Of a stretch of DNA of 64,000 bases, positions 1 through 64,000 are shown piece by piece; within the stretch, counting starts at the first letter, position 1; the number at the start of each line of letters is the position of its first letter. Below the pieces are notes generated by a model. That model searched no databases. It saw only the letters and a list, made by a program, of their open reading frames with translations, and was not told the DNA's origin. Position numbers and translations under genes: made by a program. The stretch lies in assembly GCF_009914755.1 (NCBI RefSeq), contig NC_060945.1; one strand, 5' to 3'. This DNA comes from the human T2T-CHM13v2.0 reference genome, Homo sapiens.

Positions 1-870
1 CTTATATATGGAATCAATTCAAATGTACAGCAACAGATAAATGGATAAGGAAAATGTACTATATATACACAGCGAAATACTATTCAGCCATAAGAAAGCA
101 TAAAATTCTGTCAGTTAAAAAGAGCATGGATGAACCTTGAGCATACCATGTTAAGTAAAATAAGCCACACAGAGAAACACAAATACTTTATGATCTTATT
201 ATCTCACTCATTTGAGGAACCTGAAAAAAAGGGTTGATAGAAGCAAAGAGTACAACAGGGGTTACCAGAGACTGAAGCAGGAGGATGGGAAAAGGTTGCT
301 TCACAGGTATTGTGTTATGATTAGATAGGGGAAATAAGTTTTTGTTTTTTATTACACAGTAGAATAATAATAATTAATGAAAAGTTATCTCATATTACAA
401 AATAGCTAAAAGAGACCAGTTTTGGTGGCATATTCTCGCAATCCATACATTTTGGGAGATTGAGGTAGGAGAATCACTTGATGTCAGAAGTTCAAGATGA
501 GCCTGGACAACATAGTGTGACCCCGTCTGTATGAAAAATTAAAACATTAGCCAGGCATGGTGGCAGCTTCCTGTAGTCTCAGCTAATTGGGAAACTAAGG
601 TTAGAAGACTGTTTGAAGTTACAGTGAGCTAGGATTGCACCACTGCACACCAGTCTGGGTGTTAGAGCAAGATCCTGTCTCTAAAATAATTAATACATAA
701 AGATAAAATAAAATAGCTAAAGAAGGAGCTTTTGAATATTCTCACCACAAAAATAACAAATGCATGAGGCAACAAATATAGAAGTACTGATTTTTATTGT
801 TATACAACACATATATATAATTGTTTCCCCAAAATATGCACAATTACATGTGTCAATTTTAAAAAATGAA
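1..870 (+). mobile_element. Old L1 (L1MA-like) 3' end, interrupted by an Alu
   Basis: Typical L1 3' motifs (aatggataaggaaaatgt..., tactattcagccata, atggatgaaccttgag, aaataagcca); homology resumes after the Alu and ends near tgtgtcaattttaaaaaa. Confidence 0.75.
415..710 (+). mobile_element. Diverged Alu (AluJ-like)
   Basis: Two-arm Alu (gagaatcacttga...agttcaagatgagcctgg...ttgcaccactgcac), flanked by a TSD-like repeat aaaatagctaaa at ~399 and ~710. Confidence 0.85.
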
Positions 871-1324
871 TGAAGACTATAATGTAAAACCTATAGCTGT
901 AAAATTCCTAGCACAATACAGAAGGGTGAAGCTTCATTACAACTGGTCGTGGCAATAATTTGGGGGACGTAGCATCAACGGATGAGACAACAAAAGCAAG
1001 GGAATACACATGGTACTGAATCAGTGTATGAAAAATATCCCAAACAGACAAAGCAGAACATGGAATAGATATATGCACATTGTAGTATTACTCACAAACA
1101 TGTTACCTGGAAGCAAATGTACCCTTAAGGATGAGTAGATTCAGCAAACAGGGCACGTACAATCACTGGGATAGCATTCAGCCTTAAAAATAAGGAAATC
1201 TTGAAAAGTACTACAATAAGGACAAATCTTCAAAACATTCTGTTAAGTAAAATAAGACAGTCAAAAAGGAAAGCTGTATAATTACACTCATGTAAAATAT
1301 TTAGTCAAAGTCAAAGAAACCAAG

Positions 1325-2523
<1,199 letters not shown>

Positions 2524-2829
2524 TAAGTAATGAGTATTCACTTTTACTTTTGTAAGACACAAATTATCTAAAACCTACTGCAAAACAATAGAACTATACT
2601 AACCACTTCTAAACCATATACTTAAAATGTCAGAAATGACAATGGCATGTTTTTAACTACAATTAGAAATTTAAGACTAACTAAAAGGCACAGTTAGAAA
2701 ATCTTTCAAACATCACCTTCAAATAACAAAGGGTTCTTCTCACACAATTAAATGGATTTAAACTATATGTTGATTGTAAATTTAAGATTATTTCCCTGAT
2801 GACTCACCAAGATAGAATAAAATAATCAC

Positions 2830-5800
2830 TGGAAACCAAGAAAAGAGGGAAATTTATAGCACTAATGTCCACATCAAAAAGATAGAAAGGGCTGGGTGTG
2901 GTGGCTCATGCCTGTAGTTCCAGCACTTTGGGAGGCTGGGGTAGGCAAATCACTTAAGGCCAGATGTTCAAGACCAGTCTGGACCACACAACAAAACCCC
3001 ACCTCTACAAAAAAAATTCAAAAATTAGCTGGTTTTTGTGATGCACATCTGTAATCCCAGCTACTCAGGAAGCTGAGACAGCAGAAATCACTTAAAACTG
3101 AGAAGTGGAGGTTGCAGTGAGCGGAGATCATGCCACTGTACTCCAGCCTGGGTGACAGAGTGAGACTCTGCCACAAGAAGAAAAAAAAGAGAAACTAGAA
3201 GATCTAAAATTAACAGCCTAACATCTTGATTAAAAGAACTAGAAAACCAAGTGAAAACTAACCAGAAAGGTAGCAGAAAACAAGAAATAACCAAGATCAA
3301 AGTAGAGCTGAGGGAGATAGAGACACTGAAAACTCTTCCAAAAAAAAAAGTCAACAAATCCAGGAGCTGTTTTTATGAAAAAAATTAATAAACTAGATGG
3401 AACACTAGCTAGGCAAATAAATAAGAAAAGAAAGGAGAACCAAACACAATTAGAAATAATAAGGGAGATATCATCACTGATCCCATGGAAATATGAACAA
3501 CAATCAGAGAACACTATAAACATATGTATGCACATAAACCAGAAAATCTAGAAGAAATAGACAATTTCGTTGCAAAATAAACCCTCCACAAGACTGAACC
3601 CTGAATAGATCAATAATGTGTTCTGAAACTGAGGCAGTAAAAACTAGCCTACCAAGCAAGCTGAATTTGAGCAGAGGTACAAAGAGGAGATGGTACCTTT
3701 TCTCCTAAAACCATCCAAAAAAAATTGAAGACAAAGAAGTTCTCTCTAACTCATTCTATCAGGCCAGCATCATCCAGATACCAAAACCTAACATAGATAC
3801 TACAACAACAACAACAACAACACATCATGCCAATGTCTTTGGTAAACACTGTGCAAAAATCCTCGATAAAATACTGGCAAACCAAACCCAGCAGCACATT
3901 AAAAAGTTCATCTGCAACAATGGAGTTGGCTTTGTCCCCAGGATGCAAGGTTGATTCAACATATGCAAATCAATAAATGTGACTCATCACATAAAGAGAA
4001 CTAAATACAAAAACCACATGATTATCTCAATAAATGCAGAAAAAGCATCCAATAAAATTCAGCATTCCTTCAGGTTTAAAATTCTCAGTAAACTAGGAAG
4101 TGAAGAAGCATATCTGAAAATAATAAGAGCCTTATACAACAAACCCACAGCCAATATCATACTGAATGTGCAAAAGCTGGAAACGTTCCACCTGAAAACT
4201 GGCACAAGAAAAGAATGCCCTCTCTCACCACTACCATTCAATATAGTATCAGAAGCCTTGGCCAGGAAAATCAGGCCAGAGGAAGAAATAAAGAGTATTC
4301 TAATAGAAAGAAAGGAAGTCAAATTATCTTTGTTTGCAGATGACCTGATCCTACATCTAGAAAACCTCATTGTCTCAGGCCCAAAGCTTCTTAAGGTGAT
4401 AAGCAACAGTAGCAAAATCTCAGGATATAAAATCAATGTGCAAAAGTAGCTAGCATTCCCATACACAAACAACAGGCAAGCAGGGAGACAAATCATGAAT
4501 GAACTTTCATTCACATTTGCTACAAAGAGAAAAAAATACCTAGGAATACAGCTAAGAAAGAAAGTGAAGGACCTCTTCAAGGAGAACCACAAACAACTGC
4601 TCAGAGAAATCAGAGTGGACACAAAACAGATGGAGAAACATTCCATGCTCATGGAGAGGAAGAATCAGTATCATTAATATGGGCATATTGCCCTAAGTAA
4701 TTCATAGATTCAATGCTATTCCCATTGAACTACTGACATTCTTCAGAGAATTAGAAAAATAAAAACTTTTAAAGTTCATATGGAACCAAAAAAGAGCCCA
4801 AATAGCCAAGCCAACCTTAAGAAAAAAAAAAAAAAAAGCTGGAAGTGTCACTCTACCTAACTTCAAACTATACTAGAAGAGTACAGTAACAAAAACAGCA
4901 TGGTACTGGTATAGAAACAGACACATAGACAAATGAAACAAAGTAGAGAACCTAGAAATAAAGCCAAAACCCTACAACAACCTGATTTTTGACAAAGTCA
5001 ACAAAAACAAGGAATTAGGGAAATGTCTCCCTATTCAAAAAATGGTGCTAGGAGAACTGGCTAGCCATATGCAGAGAATTTAAACTGGAACCCTTCCTAA
5101 CACCATATACAAAAATTAACTCAAGATGGATTAAAGACTTAAATGTACAACCCAAAACTATAAAAGCCTTAGAAGACAAAATCTAGATAATACCATTCAG
5201 GATATAGGCATGAGAAAAGACTTTATGACAGAAAGGCAAAAAGCAATAGCAACAAAAGCAAAAATTGACTAATGGGGTCTAATTAAACTAAAGAGCTTCT
5301 GCGGAGCCAAAGAAACTATCATCAGAGCAGACAACCTAGAGAATGGGAGAAAAATTATGCAACCTATCCATCTCACAAATGTCTAATATCCAGAATCTAG
5401 GAGGAATTTAACAAAATTTACAAGAGAAAAAAAAAAGGCCCCATTAAAAAAGGGTCAAAGAACATGAACAGACATATCTCAAAAGAGGACATACATGTGC
5501 CCAACAAACATGAAGAGCTCAACATCACTGATAACTGGATAAATACAAATCAAAACCATAATGAGATACCATCTCACACAAATTATAATGGCTATTAATA
5601 AAAAGTAAAAAAAAAAAAAAACAGATGCTGGCGAGGTTGTGGAGAAAAGGGAACACATTTACACTGTTGGTGGGAGTGTAAATTATTTCAAGCATTGAAG
5701 AAGAGAGTGTGGAGATTCCTCAAAGACCTAGAAGCAGAAATACCGTTTGACCCAGCAATACCATTACTAGGTATACACCCAAAGTAATATAAATAATTCT

Positions 5801-6354: not shown

Positions 6355-8286
6355 TGTGTTTCTGGTGGATTCTCTATGTTAGACCCAAACTGAGGATCTT
6401 GAAGCTCTCGCTGGGGGAATCGGGGCTGGGGGCACACTGGGGAGCCGCTGCCAAGGCCATCCACCCTCCCTACAAGCCACCTCCCTTCCCGGCCAGTATG
6501 GAAAGGAGAAGGGTTATGTGAACAGCTGTGGAGGTCAGAATCTCGGGAACTGAATCAGGCCCCAGCCCATGCCCCCCAGCCCAGTCCAGCCAGCGTGCTT
6601 GCCAGTCTTCCCACACAGCCAGCCCAGCCCTCAGGATTGTTAGATGGAACAAGGCTCCATCATCACCCAGGCATGGATGGAAGATGCCCTGGTCCTTACC
6701 AAGCAAGGCCTGGTTTCCAAAGTCCTCTCCGAAGAGGCCTCATGTTTGTCACATCTTAAAAGTCCCCTTTCTGCTGTTCTTGCACCCAGCATGTTGGACA
6801 GTCAAGTTCCCCCGCTGAGCAATCCACACATAAGGAGGGAGTCAACACTATTGCTATGTCAGATCAGCTCCAGCGTCTCCAGTATCAGTTTTATCAGATC
6901 CCAGGAACCTGCCTGCTCCCAGAGGTGACAGAGAAAAATCAAGGAAGGATCTGTATGGTCACTGACCTAGATGAAAACCTTGTGCATAGCTCCTTTAAGC
7001 CAATCAGCAATGCTGACTGCCTAGTGCCTGTAGAGTTTGAGGGGACCATGCACCAGATCCATGTGCTCATGAGGCCTTATATGGATGAGTTCCTGACATG
7101 AATGGAGGAAATGTTTAAATGTGTTTTCGTCATTGCTCTCTTCTTCCCAGCCTGAACAAGTAGGCAGATCCTGTGATGGGTGAGCTGGACGGGTATGGGA
7201 TGGTCTGGGGCTGCCTGTCCCATGAGTCATGTTTGTTTCACCAGGGCTGCTATGTCAAGGACATCAGCCGTCTGGGTAGGGACCTGAGGAAAACTCATCC
7301 TGGACAACTCGCCTGCTTCTTACCTCTTCCACACAGAGAATGCAGTGCCTGTGCAGTCCTGGTTTGATAACATTCCAGACAGCAGCTGCTGCACCTGATA
7401 TCATTCTTTGAGGAGATGAGTGGAGGAGCAGAGGGCCTCTGCACTAGCCTTGGGCAGCAGTGGGCCCTTAACCTTCCCTGCTTCCCAGCAATGGCCATCA
7501 CAGTAGGGGATTTTCCCACACTGTGCCTCTATGATCAGCCTGAAAGAGCGAAGGCTGGAACACCTACCCACATGGGCCTGGAAAGAGTGAGAAGTGATTG
7601 AAAAGAGCTTTAGGACAGCTTAGATTCCCAGTGGGTGAATGCCAGACCAAGGATACCCAGAGCTACCTGCCATCAAGTTGTTGGGTTCCCAAGATGTGGG
7701 TGTGAGAGAAAGAAAGAGAGCATGTGTGTTTTGTGATGAACTGTGGCCCCAAGTATATAGTGTTTCAGTAGGGGAGAAGCTGAAGGACAAAGACTCTTCC
7801 CAAGCTAGCTTGTCTCCTCTCCTGTCACCCTATGAGCCCCTGAGATCTATAGGGATGAAGAGTATTGAAGGCTCCATTGCAAACCTGGTCTTTCTACAGT
7901 GCTACAAGGCCTATGCCAAAGAGAAAGGAAAGGTACGTCTTTGGGTGTTCCAGGCACACATCTTTCTGAAATATTTCTCCAGCCAGTTGTTGCAGACAAA
8001 AGACGACATTTCTGGGAAGATGGGGACTTATGTTCAGACGAGTACCCAAACTATCAGGTCTTCTGGTCCAAAGGCTATTTTTACTTACCTCTAGCCAAGT
8101 GCCTGGGATGGATCCTTCCTGCATCTCCCCAAGGCTCACCACTTAGCCATAGCCTCAAACCCGTGGGGAAGGAAGGTCTACCCGCCCTGCAAGAGGACAA
8201 ATAACTGATTTTTGTTCATTTGACTCTGTTTTAAAATTCTCTTTAAAAAAAAAAAAAAAAAAAAAAAGAAAAAGAAAGCGTATCTG
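6355..8286 (+). pseudogene. CTDSP2: Processed (intronless) pseudogene of CTDSP2 (SCP2 small CTD phosphatase); coding remnant 6644-7471
   Basis: Frames give [87 protein letters not shown] and [10 protein letters not shown], matching CTDSP2 across its exon junctions without introns. Frameshifts and an in-frame TGA at 7099-7101. GC-rich 5'UTR-like leader and an A-run from 8246. The symbol names the parent gene. Confidence 0.95.
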
Positions 8287-8907: not shown

Positions 8908-10157
8908 GAAAAATAACCCTTTAGATATCTACAGCTTTAAACTGTGTGCAGTCATGAAAAGCAGACATTGGAAGTCATTGGCATTTAATAAATTGCAGAA
9001 AAATTATACAGTAAATACATTACAATCATTAATAATAGGCTCTAATGAGAAGAATTTAATAAATAATCATTAAAAAGACAGCAGAATTTTATCTGTTCTC
9101 AATATGTTGCTGCTCTTCTTATCAAATACTATAATAAAACTATATGACTATAATATAGCTTTCAGGAGCTAAAAAAAGCCTTATATTTTCAAATAAAAGA
9201 ACAATATAAATTTTGCAAAATACAATGAGCATTACTGAAGTATAAAGTAAATATTTGGAATTAAAATATATGGTCATTTAGATACAGACTAAAAAAGAAT
9301 AGAAATCTTAATGATTCCTTTCTGCCTACAGTGAGCTTAAAATTACAACCAAAAATTTTAACAAATATGTAGCACCTACAAGAAATTTTATTAACAGCTT
9401 ACATAATGTGTAAATTTGAGCAATTTATTTTAGAACTTTTGAATCTGAAAATCACCTGCTTGACATTCATTTGAGAAAGTGAAACATAAAGGAGAGTAAC
9501 ATAAGCAAGACGACAGAATGTGAGGTTCTGCATCCACATCCCCCACGACATAATGCAGCTGCCACAGCAAACATAAGTGCATTCATGAAAGCCTTGGAAT
9601 CCAGTTCAGAGTTTGTGGCACCCAGCTGGAGGCAAAGACCAAGGAAGACATTTTCAGAGGGTGAGCACTTGACCAAGTGGCAAGCTTGCCAATCATGGTC
9701 CCGGCTTCAAAACAGAATACTGCCACATCTTACTGTAGACTTGGCTATAACTCATTTGACCTTGGTCCTGCCACTGCAACAATCTGTGAAAAACACAAGA
9801 GAATTCATACTCACCTGAGACTTAGGTGACAGGCCTGCAGAACTTGGTTCTCTCTATAGTCACTGAGTCAGGCAAAACACACCTTCTTTCCTTCTCCAGC
9901 CATGGTCTGGAAGAAATCTTCACATTGATATGATGAAATGCTAACTAACAATATGAAAAATACTAAAGTATAAATGTCACTAAAATGGTAAATACATACT
10001 GAATTTCAGAATACTCTAAATTGTTATCATCTTAAACTAGACTATTAAAATACAAGATGTTTTACCTAAGTCTCATGATAACCACTAGGAAAAAAAAACT
10101 GCAGTAAAGAAAAAGAGAAAGTAATTAAAGCATACACAAACAACAAAAATTACACAT

Positions 10158-10378
10158 TGGATATGGTGTCTCCTGCTTATAATTCCAACACTTTGGGAGG
10201 CCAAGGTGGAAGAATGAAATCTCCTTGGGTGTTGTGGTACGTGTCTGTAGTCCAAGCTACTTGGGTGGCTAAGGTGGGAGGATTATTTGAGCCCAGGAGG
10301 TTGAAGCTACAGTGAGCTGTGATATGCCACTGCACTTCAGTCTGAGCAAGAAAGCATAACTTTGTCTCAACAAAAATG
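10158..10378 (+). mobile_element. Internally deleted AluJ-like element
   Basis: Left-arm start (cactttgggaggccaaggtgg) joined to a right arm (tgagcccaggaggttgaagctacagtgagc). Confidence 0.8.
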
Positions 10379-10518
10379 AACAATACCACAGGAAAGACAG
10401 AACCAGAAAAAAAAGAAGCAAACTTAAAATGCACAGAAAACTACAAATTTACAATAGTAACTCCTTACCTATCACTACCTTACAAATAAAAAGATTAAAG
10501 TATCTACTAAACAGATAC

Positions 10519-10890
10519 TGCTGTACACTGAATGTCATCTCCAAAATTTAGGATAAAATTTAATAGCCAACATGTTAGAATTAAGAGGTGGAACCTTTAA
10601 AAATTAATTAAGCTCTAAGAACTCTGCCCTCATGAATGGATTAATGTTCTTATTATGGGAATGGGCTAATTTTAACAAGAATGGATCTGTTATATATTAA
10701 AAAAAAAAAGCTCTCTCTCCCTCACATCTTTGTCTATGTTATTATCCAGCAACTAGACCTTCAACATATACCAGTATCATGTTGTTTTGGCTTCCCAGCC
10801 TCCAGAATCATAAGTCAAATAAAATTCTATTCTTTATTAATTACCAGTGTGTGATATTCAGTTATAGCAGCCAAAAGAGACTAAAGCAGA
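10519..10890 (+). mobile_element. MaLR LTR (MST/MLT1A-like)
   Basis: ctctgccctcatgaatggattaatg ... cttcccagcctccagaa...aataaa...ttatagcagc...actaa. Confidence 0.8.
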
Positions 10891-11250
10891 CAGAGTGGAT
10901 AAATTAATCTTTCAAACCTAGTAATATGCTGCTTACAAGAGACTCAATTATGAATTAAGAGCATAGGCTAAAAGTGAAAGGATAGAAAATGATATTCCAT
11001 GCAAACAATAACCAAAGGAGTGCAACGGTAATGCTTAAATTAGACAAAATAGACTTTCTAGCAATGTCTCTCACAAGCATGAAATGAGTTTACCATACAA
11101 TAATAATAGAGGTTAATTTCTCAAGAGAATATAGCTTTATATATTTATGCACCCAAAAGGGAGGCTTCTAAATATAAAAAGCAAATATTGCCAGAACTGT
11201 AGGGAGAAGTAGAAAGAAACCAAATAATAGAAAACTTTAATGAAATGTAT
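10891..11250 (+). mobile_element. Old L1 ORF2 endonuclease-region fragment
   Basis: tatgctgcttacaagagactca...aagtgaaaggatagaaaatgatattccatgcaaa...gacaaaatagacttt. Confidence 0.7.
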
Positions 11251-11453: not shown

Positions 11454-11867
11454 TGTTAAAATAATTAAAGATCAGAAAATTAGTCTAAAGTGGCTCTAGT
11501 GCCCTGTGTTCATAGGTAAAAAGCAAAAAACAAACAAAAAAAAATCTAAAACCTAACTCAAATATATTTCCTATAAAACACTATCTTAGCCTGAAGCAAA
11601 ATGCAGGTTTAACCCATGACAAACATGCAATTAACCTCTGAATATGTAACCAGGACATTTCCATCTGGATAGTTCAAATAAGGCTACCATATAACTGGAA
11701 CCAATTCTTGAATTTGGGTTGCTTTCTCATGCATCTTATAAAAGCCTTTCCTTTATGCCCCTCTGGTGGACCAGAAATCATGGCTGGGTGCTTTCCATTT
11801 CACCAATCACTCTTTGTTCAGATAAACTGATGAACCTTTTAACATAGACTCCCGTTAATTTTTAACA
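11454..11867 (+). mobile_element. ERV1 solo LTR (MER93-like) in intron 1 of the ZNF-type unit
   Basis: Starts TGTTAAAATAATT, ends TTTAACA; internal tataaaa; flanks ggag/agag. Confidence 0.65.
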
Positions 11868-11869
11868 AG

Positions 11870-12515
11870 AGAGACTGGGGACCCCACGGGCCGCAGCTCC
11901 TCCCACGCAAACATCCAGTCGCGGTTTTTCCCTGATGACCCACCAGGCCTCCCTGAACAATCTGGGAAATACTCATGGCTGTGGGCGCAGAGCAGGGCGC
12001 TGCCCAGGGACAGGACCGGATGGGCCGGACGGGACGTGGGGGCCCTCGCTGCTGGCCCAGCGGCCATCTTGCAGCCACAGGGGACTGAGGGCCAAGCTGC
12101 GGGAGACTCGGAGCTAACCGTGGGGAGGCCGGTCCTGCCGGTTTCACAGTCTGTTCTCCCCTCTCGGGATGGCGAACCCCGTATACTCACCATTTCCCAG
12201 CTTCCAGGATGTCCTGGCACCTTAACTATGCGTCCCCAAGGACCTACAGATCACAGGGCAACAGGGGCTGTGAGAGAGTAGCCCGGGGCTCCCAAGGTGC
12301 AGGAGGCGAAAGAGGAGACGGATCCCAAGCTCTTGTGCCAGCACCAGCGAGAGACACAGATCCCGCCAAATGCTGGAAGCCACGCCCTCCTTTCCTCTCC
12401 TCTGCCACCGCGCGCCTGATTGGGCGGTTCCCACATCAGTGTCAATGACTGGATAAAACTCCAGGACGCACCCACCCGAGCCTGACTCCTGCCCTTACCC
12501 CCACTCCCCCTCAGC
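11870..12515 (-). promoter_or_regulatory. CpG-rich KRAB-ZNF (ZNF91-subfamily)-type promoter, left copy, firing leftward
   Basis: High CpG density in AT-rich surroundings; minus-strand CCAAT box (gaaccgcccaatcaggcgcg, ~12411-12430); YY1-like cggccatctt at 12061-12070; followed by a ZNF-type exon 1. Confidence 0.8.
12191..12370 (-). pseudogene. ZNF91-family-like exon 1, probably now the first exon of a lncRNA (left copy)
   Basis: Ends GTG CCA GGA CAT CCT GGA AGC TGG GAA ATG|GTGAGT (VPGHPGSWEM, compare the ZNF91-family leader MPGxPGSxEM|gtgag). The upstream ATG is GTG here. The 5' boundary is approximate. Confidence 0.75.
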
Positions 12516-17736: not shown

Positions 17737-20700
17737 TGCAGCACCTGCCCCACTTGTTCTGGGAGGGAGTCAGGAGGAATCTGGTCAGCTCCTAATCCCC
17801 CAGGACAAAGGTACTGCCCCCTTTTCAGCACTCACATCCAGCAATGCCATCTCTGGATGGGTTTTTCAAACACAAGCAGTATGAGGTAGCAAGAATGGTG
17901 TGACAGGCTCAGGGCCATGGGCAGCCGGTTGCTGGAGAAGCAGCACAGGGCAGGCACATCTGTGGGTGGCACTATGACAAGCCAAGGCAGCCACAGACCC
18001 TAATCCCAACAGCTCCAGCCCAGATGGCATTCAAATCTTCCCAGATAGTATTGGGGTACCCTATGCCCATCACTTGCCTGCTCATTAGCACGGCCTTGTT
18101 GGTTACTCAGGGACTAAGGAGAGAGGGTGGGGGATGTAGATCCAGGGTGGGCACCGCCTCACAGCCAGAGTCCACCTGACTGCAGGCCAGCAAGCAAGCC
18201 CAAGCAGCTCAGCTCTAGTCACCTCTGGCTGTACTTTATGTGTATACATTACATAAAGGTAGCAAACAGAGGTCAACATTAGCTGTTGTGACATGAAAGT
18301 CTATGCCTCATTAAGACCTTAAAATGCTGTTGTCTTAAGCTCTCTTTATTCTAATAAAATTTATACAAATAAACACATGCAAGCTGAAACTACTATAAAT
18401 GAAATATTAGGATTTTTTAAACCCATAAACAGACACGAAGACAGTCACTGTTTGATTGCAGAGAAAGTGAGCTTCTAAAGCAGCTGACCACAAAACAGCC
18501 TCACCAAACCCCAGGCAGGCCAGGCAGTCTGAACACTACAAGGCCACGTGATGGTCACAGAGGATGACAGCTCCCGTGAGTATTGCAAGGCACTGTGTTA
18601 GCTTCTCACTCACAGTCTCAGAAAACCCTGTGAGGGGAGGCCCCGTCTCACTAGAGCACAGGAGGTTCCTGAGCTTTTCCCAGAAAATGGTCATCAAACG
18701 ATGGAGCAGGGGGAAGCCCAGACAGAACAAGTGAGTCCCTAGGGTCTCCTTAACCTCCCTCAGCTCCTCCACATGGGTCCCTGAGGGAAAGTGAGCAGCC
18801 TCCTAACCCCCTTGATAGGGTTCCAGTCCTGCAGGTCGGACTCTCTTATTTTATGCTACCATAGCGGGTGACAATGCAACCCCAGGCCCCTTATTTGCCA
18901 TCCCTCAATGCCAGGCCAGGCCCAGAGTCCTTTGCTAACACAGCCCAGGGGATGCTCAAGGCCCACCTCGGCACAGTCACCTGTAGTGTACTGAGATGAG
19001 CAAGGAGGTGCAAGTAGACACAAATCCCCATGGGCTTGGCCTCAGGCATGTTCCACAGGCTCAGGGCCTCGCTGATGAGCTCACAGCCCTCCTTCAGGAA
19101 GCCTGCAGATCACACCCTCAGGGAGCAGTGCTCAGATGAGCAGGCAGGCCCCACATCCCCCACCCCATGACGCTCTGTTCCACTTTGCAGGCTTCTGCAT
19201 TGGCCAGTCCCCACTGCTTTCTGGTGAGATGTCCGAGTTGAAGTGAGTGTTGAATGCCACACAGCTGATGGGGCTCACTGCCTTGCCCATGTTGTAAATC
19301 ACCTCCTGGCTTCAAGGGTCAGCTGCGGAGACACAGCTTGATGGGAGGTAGGCCCACTCCACCATCAGTAGTGCTGGGTTGCCCTGATCTGCACCTTCCA
19401 GGTCCTTCCTGAGATGTCTGCATGCTTCTCTAAGGGACTGGGTCACGAGACACCCCTGGCAAGAGTCAGCTGGCAGAACAGGCTGGACATTCTCCCTCAG
19501 CCTCCCCAGCAGCCCCGCCTGTGCTGTCATCTGTGCTGATGATCTCCGTGGTATGATTATGGGAAATTTTTTAAAGCATCTTTTCCCCGTTCATTTCCCT
19601 ATCTTAATAACAGCACTGATAACTTTTAAGCCCTAGCAAGCTGAAACTGCAAGACACATGATCTTCTGCCTTAGAAGGGCCATGTTTGGGCAGTGTGTGC
19701 CCAGGTGAGAGCCCCATGGTTGTTAGTGGCAGCCGGGAGCTGGATGGGCCTGGCCCCATAGCCTAGTGAAAAGTGGGACCCTCTCCTTCCAGAGCATGGA
19801 AGTCTCAGAGGCTGGAAAAAGGTGCCTGAGTGGCCTGCCAAGAAGCAGAAGGCTAGAAGGCCTGGAAAGAACCCCAACAGCCTTCAAGCTGCCTGAGAGG
19901 GCTGGGCTCATTCCAGCTTTCTTTGCTTTCATCCTGTTAGCAAGAAAACCTGCTCACAGATGGCAGGCGGGCCTGAGGCTGCCATTCCCTCATCAGGGGC
20001 TATAGGCACCTTTAATGTGGCTCTTTCTTGAAGCAGCTGCTCAGGCCGGTTCTCGAAGAGCAGTTCCCTCATTATCCACAGGTCCTTCTTCCAGCCCCGT
20101 GCCTGCAGAGGGACTAGGGAGGGAGAAAATCTCTCAGCCTGTGCCCCACAACCTGCTTTGAGACATCTCTTTTGTTACTTCCTCACAGACAGCCTGAAAC
20201 TTCCAAATGAACAGACCAGAATGGAGCCTCCAGGAAAGTGTACAGAATTCTGTCTAGTACCCAGAAGGAAGGGGGTTCCCAGTGAAGGCAGGGCCAGGCT
20301 GCATGCACCTCTTCAAAAATATTCTCCTCATAGTCCACCCTCAAGGTGTACATCCTCTGTGTGCTTGCAGTCCATGGCAGCCTCTGCCTTGGGAACCGTC
20401 CAGCTGCACACCTGCAATATGGTGGTGACCCTCTTGAATGGATGGTTCTGGGCCCCATTGCAGGCAGCAGATAGGGAGATGCTCAGCCCATCAAGCCCAG
20501 AGCCCTGCCACAGGCTTCTTTGAGGCCTCCACCTGCTCTGGGTTCTTGCCCTGAGAGGCTGCCCTGAAGTCAAACAGAAGCAGGTGGGACTCTCTTCCAC
20601 AGCTGCTCTCTCTCCCACTGACAGCTCCCTAGAGGGTAACTCAGACAGAGAAGATAGAATTCTCAGGCAGAAGGACAGGAGTTTCGGCTGCCGATTCATT

Positions 20701-21621
20701 CCATACCCCCACATGACATGACACAAGGCAGGGGCTGTGGGACAAAGTCATTGCCTTTCCTTCTGGCATGAGGAATGCCTTAGGAAGCAGGTCTGGTGGG
20801 GCTAGGGTTGAGCGATAGGCTTCAGACCACAAGGAGTGGATGGACACTGAGCAAGTATCCTGGTTATCTGTCCACAGATCCAGAACAAGTGGCATCCCAG
20901 GAGCCTGGGAGGGGCTGGCAGAGACTTACTGTGTCCAGCAAAAGCCCCATGTGGATGCGGTAATGCTGCCTGCTGGTCCTTGGCTGTAATTACAAACAGG
21001 TACATGAGGTCCCCATGGATCTTGCAGCTCTCAGGGAGTGGGTTCCAGCTGCTCATGGTAGGCACTTTTAGTCACTGAACGTGCTTCAGGAATGGCCAAG
21101 CTTGATTAAGCCAGGCGTCTTGCTGTGAGACCCTCCACCCAACTGAGGACCCTCTTCCTTGTCCCCCCTGACAGTTTACCTTCCAGTTCTGGTTCTGGAG
21201 ACACGATGGCCCTTCTTGGGCCCCTGGGAGAATGTGCTCAGATGACACACAGTCGACAGGACCCATTTCCAAGCCATTCTTCCATTTCCCACTGTTTGAG
21301 GGGCCGAGGCCGGTGATCAGCACAGGGCCACCCAGGGCCAGCTGTCTGCACCTAAACGTCATGTTGGTCTGGATGTCTCAGGGCCAGAACTCTCCAGGTA
21401 AGATGGCCTGGTCCTCAGCACCTGGCCTCCATGCTCCTTTTTCCTCTGTTCAATCCTGGCCCCAATGCCTCCCGCAACTCTCAGGTCACCATTGGAGAAG
21501 ATGCTCAGGAAGAACAAGGAGCTGCAGTCAACCCTGCTGAAGGTGGCATATGGGTCCAGGCTCTTGAGCTGGTCTTTGACATGGTACATGTGGATGCAGG
21601 CTTTGAGCAGTGTGAGTAGCT
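17737..21621 (-). pseudogene. CLUH: Unprocessed, exon-depleted CLUH pseudogene (left copy)
   Basis: Exon remnants in CLUH order: 21478-21621 (HVKDQLKSLDPYATFSRVDCSSLFFLSIFSNGDL vs CLUH [34 protein letters not shown]), 21180-21295 (GLEMGPVDC..EHILPG), 20930-21083 (TMSSWNP...HGDLMYLFVITA), 20309-20456 (HPFKRVTT.LQVCSWT...AMDC), 20010-20102 (93 nt), ~19222-19323, 18967-19102 (GFLKEGCELI), ~18035-18113, 17836-17959. Many have splice-like borders; stops and frameshifts are present. Confidence 0.92.
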
Positions 21622-21789
21622 CTTTCCGGAAGGAGGGGAAAACGGTGTTACCAGGGTCCTACACCCTAGAACGACCCATCTAGCACAGAAAACAGTTTGC
21701 AACGTGCTATTATGTGTGATTTTAATTTTGGGCTTTAGGCTTTCATTTCCAAATTCCACAATAAACACATAAGGTGGAGTTCTGATTTC

Positions 21790-21852
21790 AACACACACAC
21801 ACACACACACACACAAGCACACACACACATTCTCTCTCTCTCCCTCTCTCTT
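21790..21852. repeat. (CA)n-(CT)n compound microsatellite
   Basis: Seen directly; much shorter in the mirror copy at ~54235-54266. Confidence 0.9.
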
Positions 21853-35050: not shown

Positions 35051-35483
35051 TGTTAAATATTACTGTTTTTCTTCCCCCAGGGGCTACGTGAACATAAGCT
35101 CATTTTTCACACTAGCAGCATTTAGAAATGTCTCTTCTGGAGGAACACTGATGCTCTCAAATCACACGTGGTAATTCTCTCCTCCAGGCACAAAATGCAG
35201 TCTCAGCATCTCTGTATCAGGAGTCACTGTCTAAGAGTCTCTCCAGAGAAATAAGCTACCCAGGCCATCCAGCTGCTGGTGAGTTGCTTTGTGGTCATGA
35301 ACTGGGTAGATTTCCTCATCTCTTGCTCATTGGCCACATTCAGGATTAATGATTCAATGCTTTTGTTGTTCCAGAAGCTGTGGTCAGTGGCTATGCAGGA
35401 ATCAGTCTTTCAGTGCTGATCTTTGCTGAGAAAATAATAGTATTGTTCAAACAGTATATAGGATTTGCACTCAATATTTAATA
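35051..35483 (+). pseudogene. VN1R: 5'-truncated vomeronasal type-1 receptor (V1R) pseudogene fragment, about TM5-TM7
   Basis: Manual translation: YC.SSP.GY...FFTLAAFRNV...; VVILSSRHKMQSQHL....LRVSPEK*ATQAIQLLVSCFVVMNWVDFLIS; then after a frameshift VSGYAGISLSVLIFAEKII. These match V1R hallmarks (RH..Q.QHLH, SPE.RAT.TI.LLVS.FV, YA..SP.VLI). The symbol is family-level only. Confidence 0.85.
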
Positions 35484-63555: not shown

Positions 63556-64000
63556 GGCTGAGGGGGAGTGGGGTAAGGGCAGGAGTCAGGCGGGGGTGGG
63601 TGCGTCCTGGAGTTTTATCCAGTCATTGACACCGATGTGGGAACCGCCCAATCAGGCGCGCAGTTGGAGAGGACAGGAGAGGAGGGCGTGCCTTCCGGCG
63701 TTTGGCGGGATCTTTGTCTCCCGCTGGTGCTGGCACAGGAACTTGGGATCCGTCTCCTCTTTCGCCTCCTCCACTTTGGGAGCCCCGGGCTACTCTCTCA
63801 CAGCCCCTGTTGCCCTGTGATCTGTAGGTCCTTGGGGACGCACAGTTAAGATGACAGGACATCCTGGAAGCTGGGAAATGGTGAGTATACGGGGTTCGGC
63901 ATCCCGAGAGGGGAGAGCAGGCTGTGAAACCGGCAGGACCGGCCTCCCCACGGTTAGCTCCGAGTCTCCCGCAGCTTGGCCCTCAGTCCCCTGTGGCTGC
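63556..64000 (+). promoter_or_regulatory. CpG-rich KRAB-ZNF-type promoter, right copy, firing rightward
   Basis: GC-box-like ggcgggggtggg at ~63589, CCAAT box ccgcccaatcaggcgcg at ~63644-63660, ETS-like cttccgg at ~63692, then ttggcgggatctttgtctc. Confidence 0.82.
63700..63880 (+). pseudogene. ZNF91-family-like exon 1 with intact ATG (right copy), probably a lncRNA first exon
   Basis: ATG ACA GGA CAT CCT GGA AGC TGG GAA ATG|GTGAGT at 63851-63886 (MTGHPGSWEM). The 5' boundary is approximate. Confidence 0.78.

What the first reader, a model, noticed from the sequence alone, without database searches (positions are those of the whole stretch)
11870..12515. A KRAB-ZNF promoter/exon-1 cassette appears co-opted to drive mirror-image outward lncRNAs
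Seen: a ZNF91-family promoter (CCAAT box), leader exon (xxGHPGSWEM|GTGAGT), intronic YY1-like site and MER93-like LTR, duplicated at 63556-64000. I saw no KRAB-A exon or C2H2 array in the 11.8 kb downstream of the left copy; that stretch holds only repeats and an antisense CTDSP2 retrocopy. CpGs are retained despite the age of the duplication, which suggests germline hypomethylation. Inference: an orphaned zinc-finger gene promoter now drives paired lncRNAs and may keep the regulatory logic of KZFP clusters. This is my best candidate for an under-described system.
Basis: partly seen in the sequence, partly recalled or inferred. Interest (0 to 1): 0.72.

Follow-up and report, generated by a model that had tools for sequence, protein, structure and literature searches.

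The report
Nucleolar lncRNAs are a zinc-finger fossil
Two already known non-coding RNAs made beside the human ribosomal-DNA arrays start at the first exon of a broken zinc-finger gene that lacks its repressor and finger exons; this likely explains where they came from, and it suggests the oligo used to prove their function may also hit related zinc-finger genes.

Summary
Observation mostly confirmed, interpretation needs correcting. The two mirror promoters, 51 kb apart, are those of disnor238 and disnor187 in the acrocentric distal junction (DJ), published in 2013 with H3K4me3 and spliced RNA, and later knocked down. The zinc-finger origin is real, and I did not find it in print. It is not a free promoter cassette. 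Each arm holds a 22-23 kb decayed KRAB zinc-finger (KZFP) gene, collinear with KZFP genes on chr16 and a pseudogene on chr7: CLUH piece, promoter, exon 1, intron-1 LTR, a clean junction at 11241/11242 where KRAB-A/B are missing, intron-3 DNA, then the acceptor and 380 bp of the finger exon, cut by an L1 before any finger. CpGs are kept (32 of 38 versus 128 of 393 elsewhere). The finger exon that ZNF274 binds in KZFP genes is gone, so only the 5' regulatory half can survive. All 12 exon-1 20-mers shared by the ten DJ copies also match non-DJ paralogs perfectly, a testable caveat for the published antisense knock-down (oligo sequence not seen). Verdict: known RNAs; new member of a known kind (lncRNA from a decayed coding gene).

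The parts
12191..12373 (-). Exon 1 of LOC105379499 (disnor238): KZFP-type first exon ending in ATG|GTGAGT
   Evidence: A processed copy on chr15 joins this exon straight to KRAB-A (Pfam PF01352 22.2 bits)
12416..12423 (-). Proximal CCAAT box; the second, upstream CCAAT of the family is changed to CCAGT on chr21 and intact in the chr13 and chr22 left arms
   Evidence: NF-Y binding is inferred
12060..12071 (-). YY1-type motif in intron 1
   Evidence: 1 vs 0.03 expected; 10 of 10 DJ copies; binding is inferred
11870..12515 (.). CpG-rich promoter region (GC 0.62, CpG o/e 0.54) with CpGs protected from decay
11454..11867 (+). Solo-LTR-like element, antisense in intron 1, inherited from the KZFP family
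   Evidence: 27 of 32 non-DJ hits lie in chr19/7/16/11 KZFP regions, 11 within 1.5 kb of a regular exon 1 listed; same place in the chr16 gene
11241..11242 (-). Junction of intron-1-like to intron-3-like DNA; about 15 kb holding KRAB-A and KRAB-B in two chr16 genes is missing here
9665..11241 (-). DNA collinear with intron 3 (after KRAB-B) of chr16 KZFP genes, 72-82%
9815..9906 (-). lncRNA exon 2; its AG and GT are also present in the chr16 intron 3; donor lost in the right arm
6644..8183 (+). CTDSP2-like pseudogene (RefSeq); supplies antisense exons 3 and 4; lies in about 5.4 kb (L1 plus this copy) not matched in the chr7 paralog
   Evidence: Hub table
443..2848 (-). Blocks collinear with the chr7 paralog, including last exon 777-1182. 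The unit runs on past the window start: at C21:2842389 down to 2842009 (9.6-10.0 kb before base 1) lie the acceptor and first 380 bp of the terminal finger exon, then an L1-like 3' end; no fingers
   Evidence: remnant: 72.7% DNA, E 1e-44; tblastn E 1.7e-6
18000..21850 (-). Intron-containing CLUH-derived piece that travels with the promoter
   Evidence: 70% to C17:2.589 Mb; CLU domain in the chr17 source
35052..35481 (+). VN1R44P in the palindrome spacer; best relatives lie in chr16 and chr7 KZFP regions
   Evidence: Hub table
63648..63655 (+). Mirror CCAAT box
63698..63880 (+). Mirror exon 1 (disnor187 side, pointing to the rDNA); start inferred from the left copy. Its LTR (C21:2916203-2916605) and finger-exon remnant (from C21:2938896) lie past the window end
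   Evidence: remnant: 72.1%, E 3e-39; E 0.006

Best explanation
Each arm of the distal-junction palindrome holds a decayed KRAB zinc-finger gene that keeps its promoter region and first exon but lacks the KRAB exons and all fingers, and this surviving 5' end likely is what drives the known lncRNAs disnor238 and disnor187. Shown by sequence: the order CLUH piece, promoter, exon 1, LTR, junction, intron-3 DNA, start of the finger exon; its collinearity with chr16 KZFP genes; CpG retention. Shown in papers: H3K4me3 and spliced polyadenylated RNA from both promoters. Inferred history: a piece of a ZNF91/ZNF267-type cluster was duplicated to pericentromeric and subtelomeric sites, lost KRAB-A/B by internal deletion and the fingers at an L1, then was duplicated in inverted form. 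Inferred working: the island stays unmethylated, NF-Y and YY1 likely bind, Pol II runs outward, and the old exon-1 donor splices to whatever acceptors remain (a cryptic intron-3 exon, antisense CTDSP2 exons), giving a non-coding RNA. With the finger exon gone, ZNF274-type silencing is predicted to be absent. How the RNA or its transcription acts on the nucleolus is not settled by this work.
For: Exon 1 matches chr19p12, chr7 and chr16 KZFP regions at 67-81%. A processed copy joins it to KRAB-A. C16:32.09-32.12 Mb shows CLUH piece, upstream DNA, exon 1, KRAB-A (32110019; Pfam 87.5 bits), KRAB-B, intron 3, collinear with the DJ apart from the KRAB interval. C16:32.26-32.30 Mb repeats this and has a finger exon with 13 Pfam finger matches. 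Base-level junction at 11241/11242. Finger-exon start in both arms. The chr7 paralog is collinear through to a decayed finger exon, the positive control. Longest ATG ORF in the spliced 992-nt RefSeq model is 44 aa. Promoter spacing 51.3 kb fits 238 minus 187 kb, and the + strand promoter is nearer the rDNA on chr13. Expression: PMC3847771, PMC6942050.
Against: Identity to the intact genes is only 65-82%, so no single parent gene can be named. The exon-1 tree puts chr7 and chr16 outside the chr19 copies although they give the best downstream collinearity, so the unit could be a chimera of two family members. Only 42 kb beyond each donor was scanned, not 100 kb. No binding, methylation or CAGE data could be examined. 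RefSeq lists no gene at the right promoter on chr21, and two donors (exons 2 and 4) are lost in the right arm, so the RNAs are not mirror images in splicing.
Confidence: 0.85

Rival explanations
1. A small portable KZFP promoter/exon-1 cassette was inserted in unrelated DNA and co-opted to drive new lncRNAs.
For: Extra exon-1 units exist: 5 of the 8 closest chr19/chr7 copies lie 16-104 kb upstream of a regular exon 1 and its KRAB-A. The chr12/chrY copies break at 11693 and six others at 12217.
Against: The DJ copy is flanked by KZFP-locus DNA on both sides, from the CLUH piece 9 kb upstream to the finger-exon acceptor 22 kb downstream, in the gene's own order.
Confidence: 0.08
2. On function, compatible with the same origin: the RNAs are by-products of a leftover CpG-island promoter kept alike by acrocentric exchange, and the antisense phenotype comes partly from hitting KZFP paralogs.
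For: All 12 exon-1 20-mers identical in the ten DJ copies (of 206 tested) have 3-6 perfect matches among 23 non-DJ paralog loci. One has 6 perfect non-DJ hits genome-wide, 4 on chr19p12. Splice donors differ between arms. Deleting most of one DJ left that rDNA array active (PMC13726607, passages).
Against: The oligo sequence was not seen. 7 of 206 20-mers fit all DJ copies within one mismatch and no held paralog. CRISPRi of the inverted repeats also lowered EU incorporation (PMC11795452, passage). Non-CpG divergence in the island is lower than in flanks, 3.7% vs 4.9-6.4% (p 0.03, post hoc). Nine other DJs could act in trans in the deletion line.
Confidence: 0.3
3. An ordinary intact ZNF gene whose KRAB and finger exons lie further out.
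For: The chr21 right-arm exon 1 keeps an upstream in-frame ATG; only 42 kb per side was scanned.
Against: The places where KRAB and fingers belong are identified by flanking homology and are empty. No DJ hit among 150 of 693 and 150 of 558 scored KRAB candidates (lower bounds).
Confidence: 0.02

Closest known systems
disnor187 and disnor238 (Floutsakou 2013 PMC3847771; van Sluis 2019 PMC6942050)
   Same: The same two promoters and transcripts: outward, spliced, 51 kb apart, on all five acrocentrics.
   Different: Neither main text contains 'ZNF' or 'zinc finger'; origin and gene-body remnants are not described in the passages seen. Supplements were not readable.
lncRNAs derived from lost protein-coding genes, such as JPX (Hezroni 2017 PMC5577775, passages)
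   Same: Ancestral promoter and first exon retained, rest rebuilt from other sequence (their Fig. 7 modes); JPX also keeps a YY1-related element near its start.
   Different: Those are old mammalian gene losses; this is a segmental duplicate of a family whose members still have intact exons, present in ten copies in a palindrome.
ZNF91-subfamily KZFP genes; closest KRAB-bearing ones at C16:32.10 and 32.26 Mb (ZNF720/KRBOX5 and ZNF267 by recall from position)
   Same: CCAAT promoter, exon 1, YY1-type site, intron-1 LTR, intron-3 DNA and (tested for the 32.26 gene) finger-exon acceptor.
   Different: No KRAB-A, KRAB-B or fingers; an L1 sits just upstream of the promoter; no coding capacity.
Paralogous broken copies at chr7:66.48, chr12:38.05, chrY:18.52/19.20 and chr3/4/10/14/22 sites
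   Same: Same CLUH piece plus promoter duplicon.
   Different: Each set breaks at its own point; chr7 keeps decayed fingers but lost the LTR; the chr3/4/10/14/22 copies, sister to the DJ (96/93), end inside exon 1.

Membership tests
disnor187/238 | Promoters 51 kb apart in the DJ inverted repeat, pointing outward | tested here: met
   51.3 kb
disnor187/238 | Present in both arms of all five acrocentrics, distal to rDNA | tested here: met
   10 copies; rDNA side read on chr13 only
disnor187/238 | Exon identity with cDNAs AK026938 and BX647690 | not testable with these tools
   cDNA sequences not available
Functional KZFP gene | KZFP-type exon 1 with donor | tested here: met
Functional KZFP gene | KRAB-A and KRAB-B exons | tested here: not met
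   junction
Functional KZFP gene | C2H2 finger array | tested here: not met
   none in 137 kb of DJ records; control chr7 finger E 8e-6
Unprocessed KZFP pseudogene | Introns and flanks collinear with a KRAB-bearing family gene | tested here: met
Unprocessed KZFP pseudogene | Remnant of coding exons | tested here: met
   Exon-1 ATG and finger-exon spacer
ZNF91 subfamily | 5' end groups with chr19p12/chr7q11 cluster genes | tested here: inconclusive
   Homology and shared LTR are clear, but no KRAB is left to place on a tree, there was no outside outgroup, and the defining paper was not held
lncRNA derived from a coding gene | Spliced transcript without coding capacity from the old gene's locus | tested here: met
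   44 aa longest ORF, AG/GT sites at all four introns; expression from papers
ZNF274-regulated KZFP chromatin | Finger-coding exon that carries the ZNF274 motif | tested here: not met
   Fingers absent; motif location from PMC11397430; the motif itself was not scanned
MER93 LTR | Match to the repeat-library consensus | not testable with these tools
   No repeat library; only TG..CA ends and distribution seen
Germline-unmethylated CpG island | Low methylation in germ cells | not testable with these tools
   Indirect support only: CpG retention; o/e 0.54 is just under the usual 0.6 (threshold recalled)

The most novel reading that the evidence does not exclude
The nucleolar-anchor lncRNAs are a domesticated KZFP 5' end: loss of the finger exon freed it from ZNF274 silencing, the exon-1/YY1 module is now the selected part (21 of 21 intronic CpGs kept, half the flanking divergence), and because that module is shared with KZFP first exons, the antisense knock-down behind 'DJ transcripts are essential' may have depleted zinc-finger genes too.
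Probability: 0.2. Interest if true: 0.75.

Novelty: new member of a known kind. Interest (0 to 1): 0.5.

Why it matters
It gives an origin for the core of the DJ palindrome, described as predominantly unique to the acrocentric arms: a captured piece of a zinc-finger cluster. It yields direct predictions for how disnor RNAs are controlled (NF-Y/YY1 promoter, no ZNF274 site). It also exposes a checkable weak point in the evidence for their function, at a time when a DJ deletion left rDNA active (PMC13726607). The RNAs themselves and this kind of lncRNA birth are known, which caps the interest.

Tried and rejected
The finger tblastn (and the spacer tblastn in 49) used a wrong-frame query by my scripting error; it was redone correctly, and only that one is used (the DNA searches stand). 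A second deletion joining chr7 66501556 to 66504309 is withdrawn: the far side is an L1 at 69-72%, not shown to be orthologous. 'CLUH retrocopy' is withdrawn: the match to chr17 is contiguous across introns. Pfam found nothing in 9 of 9 short window frames of the CLUH piece; its identity rests on the chr17 source. A 12-kb search for the downstream origin returned only DJ arms and repeats, 21 of 78,496 candidates scored. Two of three retro-like copies do not join exon 1 directly to KRAB-A: one runs into L1-like sequence, one has a decayed KRAB further on. L1 matches downstream of the chr12 and chr19 copies were not taken as orthologous. The CCAAT octamer count is at chance level. The ZNF91-subfamily paper was not held and supplements of the two DJ papers could not be read.

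Full report
WHERE THIS IS. The window holds one inverted repeat, 12071-34900 against 41175-64000 at 93.2%. The promoter/exon DNA occurs ten times at 93-100%, twice on each of chr13, 14, 15, 21 and 22. On chr13 the first listed 18S gene lies at 5,777,958, on the side of the + strand promoter (which listed chr13 only). The two promoters are 51.3 kb apart. Floutsakou 2013 (PMC3847771, passages) describes DJ promoters at 187 and 238 kb with promoter chromatin marks and spliced polyadenylated RNAs running outward. So the left copy is disnor238 and the right is disnor187 (inference from spacing and direction). Van Sluis 2019 (PMC6942050, passages) depleted both with one oligo against exon 1 and saw nucleolar segregation in about 35% of cells. 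Ataei 2025 (PMC11795452, passages) saw lower EU incorporation after CRISPRi of the repeats. Giemza 2026 (PMC13726607, passages) deleted most of one DJ and the rDNA stayed active.

THE OBSERVATION. Of sites that are CpG in either arm, 32 of 38 are kept in both arms in 11870-12515 (4 transitions, 2 other), against 128 of 393 in the rest of 1-34900 (160 transitions, 105 other); Fisher p 2e-7 for kept vs transition. In the intronic half 21 of 21 are kept. Non-CpG divergence is 3.7% against 4.9-6.4%. This fits low germline methylation, though selection or local conversion could contribute.

THE EXON IS A KZFP FIRST EXON. Of 41 matches (40 of 52 candidates scored), 14 lie in KZFP regions of chr19p12, chr7, chr16 and chr1, and 8 are short retro-like copies. 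One of three such copies examined joins the exon directly to KRAB-A. At C16:32.26 Mb the same exon, two CCAAT boxes, the YY1-type site and the same antisense LTR precede KRAB-A by 10.6 kb, then KRAB-B and a finger exon. The LTR is a family heirloom: 27 of 32 non-DJ hits are in KZFP regions. Gene names (ZNF267, ZNF720, ZNF91 subfamily) are recalled from position and come from no call.

IT IS A BROKEN GENE, NOT A CASSETTE. Window 11241 to 9665 is collinear at 72-82% with the intron after KRAB-B in the chr16 genes. Intron-1 homology to chr19 copies stops, and intron-3 homology starts, at 11241/11242. At C16:32.09-32.12 Mb the order CLUH piece, upstream DNA, exon 1, KRAB-A, KRAB-B, intron 3 is in place and matches the DJ except for about 15 kb with the KRAB exons. 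At 21.8 kb (left) and 23.0 kb (right) past the donor, both arms keep the acceptor and start of the finger exon (72-73% DNA identity; tblastn E 1.7e-6 and 0.006), which runs 380 bp into an L1-like end. No KRAB or finger was found in C21:2822001-2957400 by tblastn, blastn or a finger profile, while the same profile found decayed fingers in the chr7 paralog. That paralog is collinear from the CLUH piece to the finger exon and lacks KRAB with other breakpoints, which suggests separate losses. The spacer pseudogene VN1R44P also has its best relatives in chr16 and chr7 KZFP regions.

RELATIVES. In a tree of 23 exon-1 regions (left out: 4 DJ copies, 1 chrY copy, 1 chr22 copy, the retrocopies; 5 rows only 42% filled), the DJ copies are sister to truncated copies on chr3/4/10/14/22 (96/93), and these to chr12 plus chrY (100/99); chr19 copies come next. 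These non-DJ copies share the L1 upstream of the promoter; the chr19 copies do not. Five of the eight closest chr19/chr7 copies are extra first exons 16-104 kb upstream of a regular KZFP exon 1; for three no intervening regular exon was among the 40 scored.

HOW IT LIKELY WORKS. The old promoter fires; exon 1 splices to an exon whose AG and GT also exist in the chr16 intron 3, then to antisense CTDSP2-like exons. The RefSeq model is 992 nt with a longest ORF of 44 aa. The right arm has lost two of these donors, so the RNAs share exon 1 but likely differ downstream. ZNF274 marks KZFP 3' ends (PMC2999557, abstract) through a motif in finger-coding exons and is linked to the nucleolus (PMC11397430, passages; review PMC12091869, passages). 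The DJ unit has no fingers, so that route is predicted not to apply. NF-Y and YY1 binding are inferred from motifs only.

CAVEAT FOR THE KNOCK-DOWN. The oligo is said to target exon 1 of both arms on all five chromosomes. Only 12 of 206 20-mers in 12191-12415 are identical in all ten CHM13 copies, and each has 3-6 perfect matches among 23 non-DJ paralog loci held. For one, a genome scan gave 16 perfect hits (10 DJ, 4 chr19p12, 2 others) and 9 with one mismatch, against 1 for the reversed control. Against this: the oligo sequence was not seen, 7 of 206 20-mers fit all DJ copies within one mismatch and no held paralog, expression of the matching paralogs was not checked, and the CRISPRi result is independent.

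NOVELTY. Six DJ or acrocentric papers have no 'ZNF' in their main text: PMC3847771, PMC6942050, PMC11795452, 10.64898/2025.12.22.696095, PMC13726607, PMC10097779 (term counts and passages). Library searches pairing DJ, disnor or locus names with KRAB, zinc finger, CLUHP, ZNF91 or MER93 gave no listing that states this origin (listings only, plus passages of PMC5456395). Subscription papers, the ZNF91-subfamily paper and the DJ papers' supplements, which list gene models and duplications, were not seen and could mention it. As a kind, it fits lncRNAs recycled from coding genes (PMC5577775, passages).

VERDICT. Known RNAs; well-supported and apparently unreported origin as a doubly broken KZFP gene; one practical, testable consequence. 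Interest 0.5.

Noticed in passing
G000:C24:18521677 and 19196955; G000:C12:38049067: The same promoter duplicon sits as an inverted pair on chrY (palindrome P5 by recall); chrY and chr12 copies both break at window 11693 and have fewer CpGs (o/e 0.32, 0.45).
   Followed up: partly
L016, L017 (C10:134.60 Mb, C4:193.42 Mb) and L014, L015, L018, L019: The DJ's sister copies, cut inside exon 1, lie near the 4q and 10q ends (close to D4Z4 by recall) and at chr3, 14 and 22 sites, with the CLUH piece at 87-89%; they link the DJ to that duplication family.
   Followed up: partly
L020, L022, L023, L027 (chr19p12), L026 (chr7): A set of extra KZFP first exons 16-104 kb upstream of regular KZFP genes; most keep CpG-rich promoters, while a related copy (L024) has decayed to o/e 0.21.
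   Followed up: partly
G000:C7:66472253-66503781: A KRAB-less KZFP pseudogene with decayed fingers, collinear with the whole DJ unit.
   Followed up: yes
G000:C16:32088460 and C19:23717173: Further copies of the intron-1 LTR imply another exon 1 upstream of the chr16 CLUH piece and a divergent promoter pair near chr19:23.71 Mb.
   Followed up: no
window 63851-63880: Three of five right arms (chr15, 21, 22) keep an upstream in-frame ATG in exon 1; chr13 and chr14 right arms carry the left-arm GTG, hinting at arm-to-arm conversion.
   Followed up: no
G000:C21:55741, C15:58827, C22:57418, C4:58865: An equal-scoring open KRAB-A exon lies about 56-59 kb from the p-arm end of three acrocentrics and chr4.
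   Followed up: no
L029: The processed KZFP copy on chr15 is followed within 1.5 kb by what looks like a ribosomal-protein L5 retrocopy (recalled resemblance).
   Followed up: no
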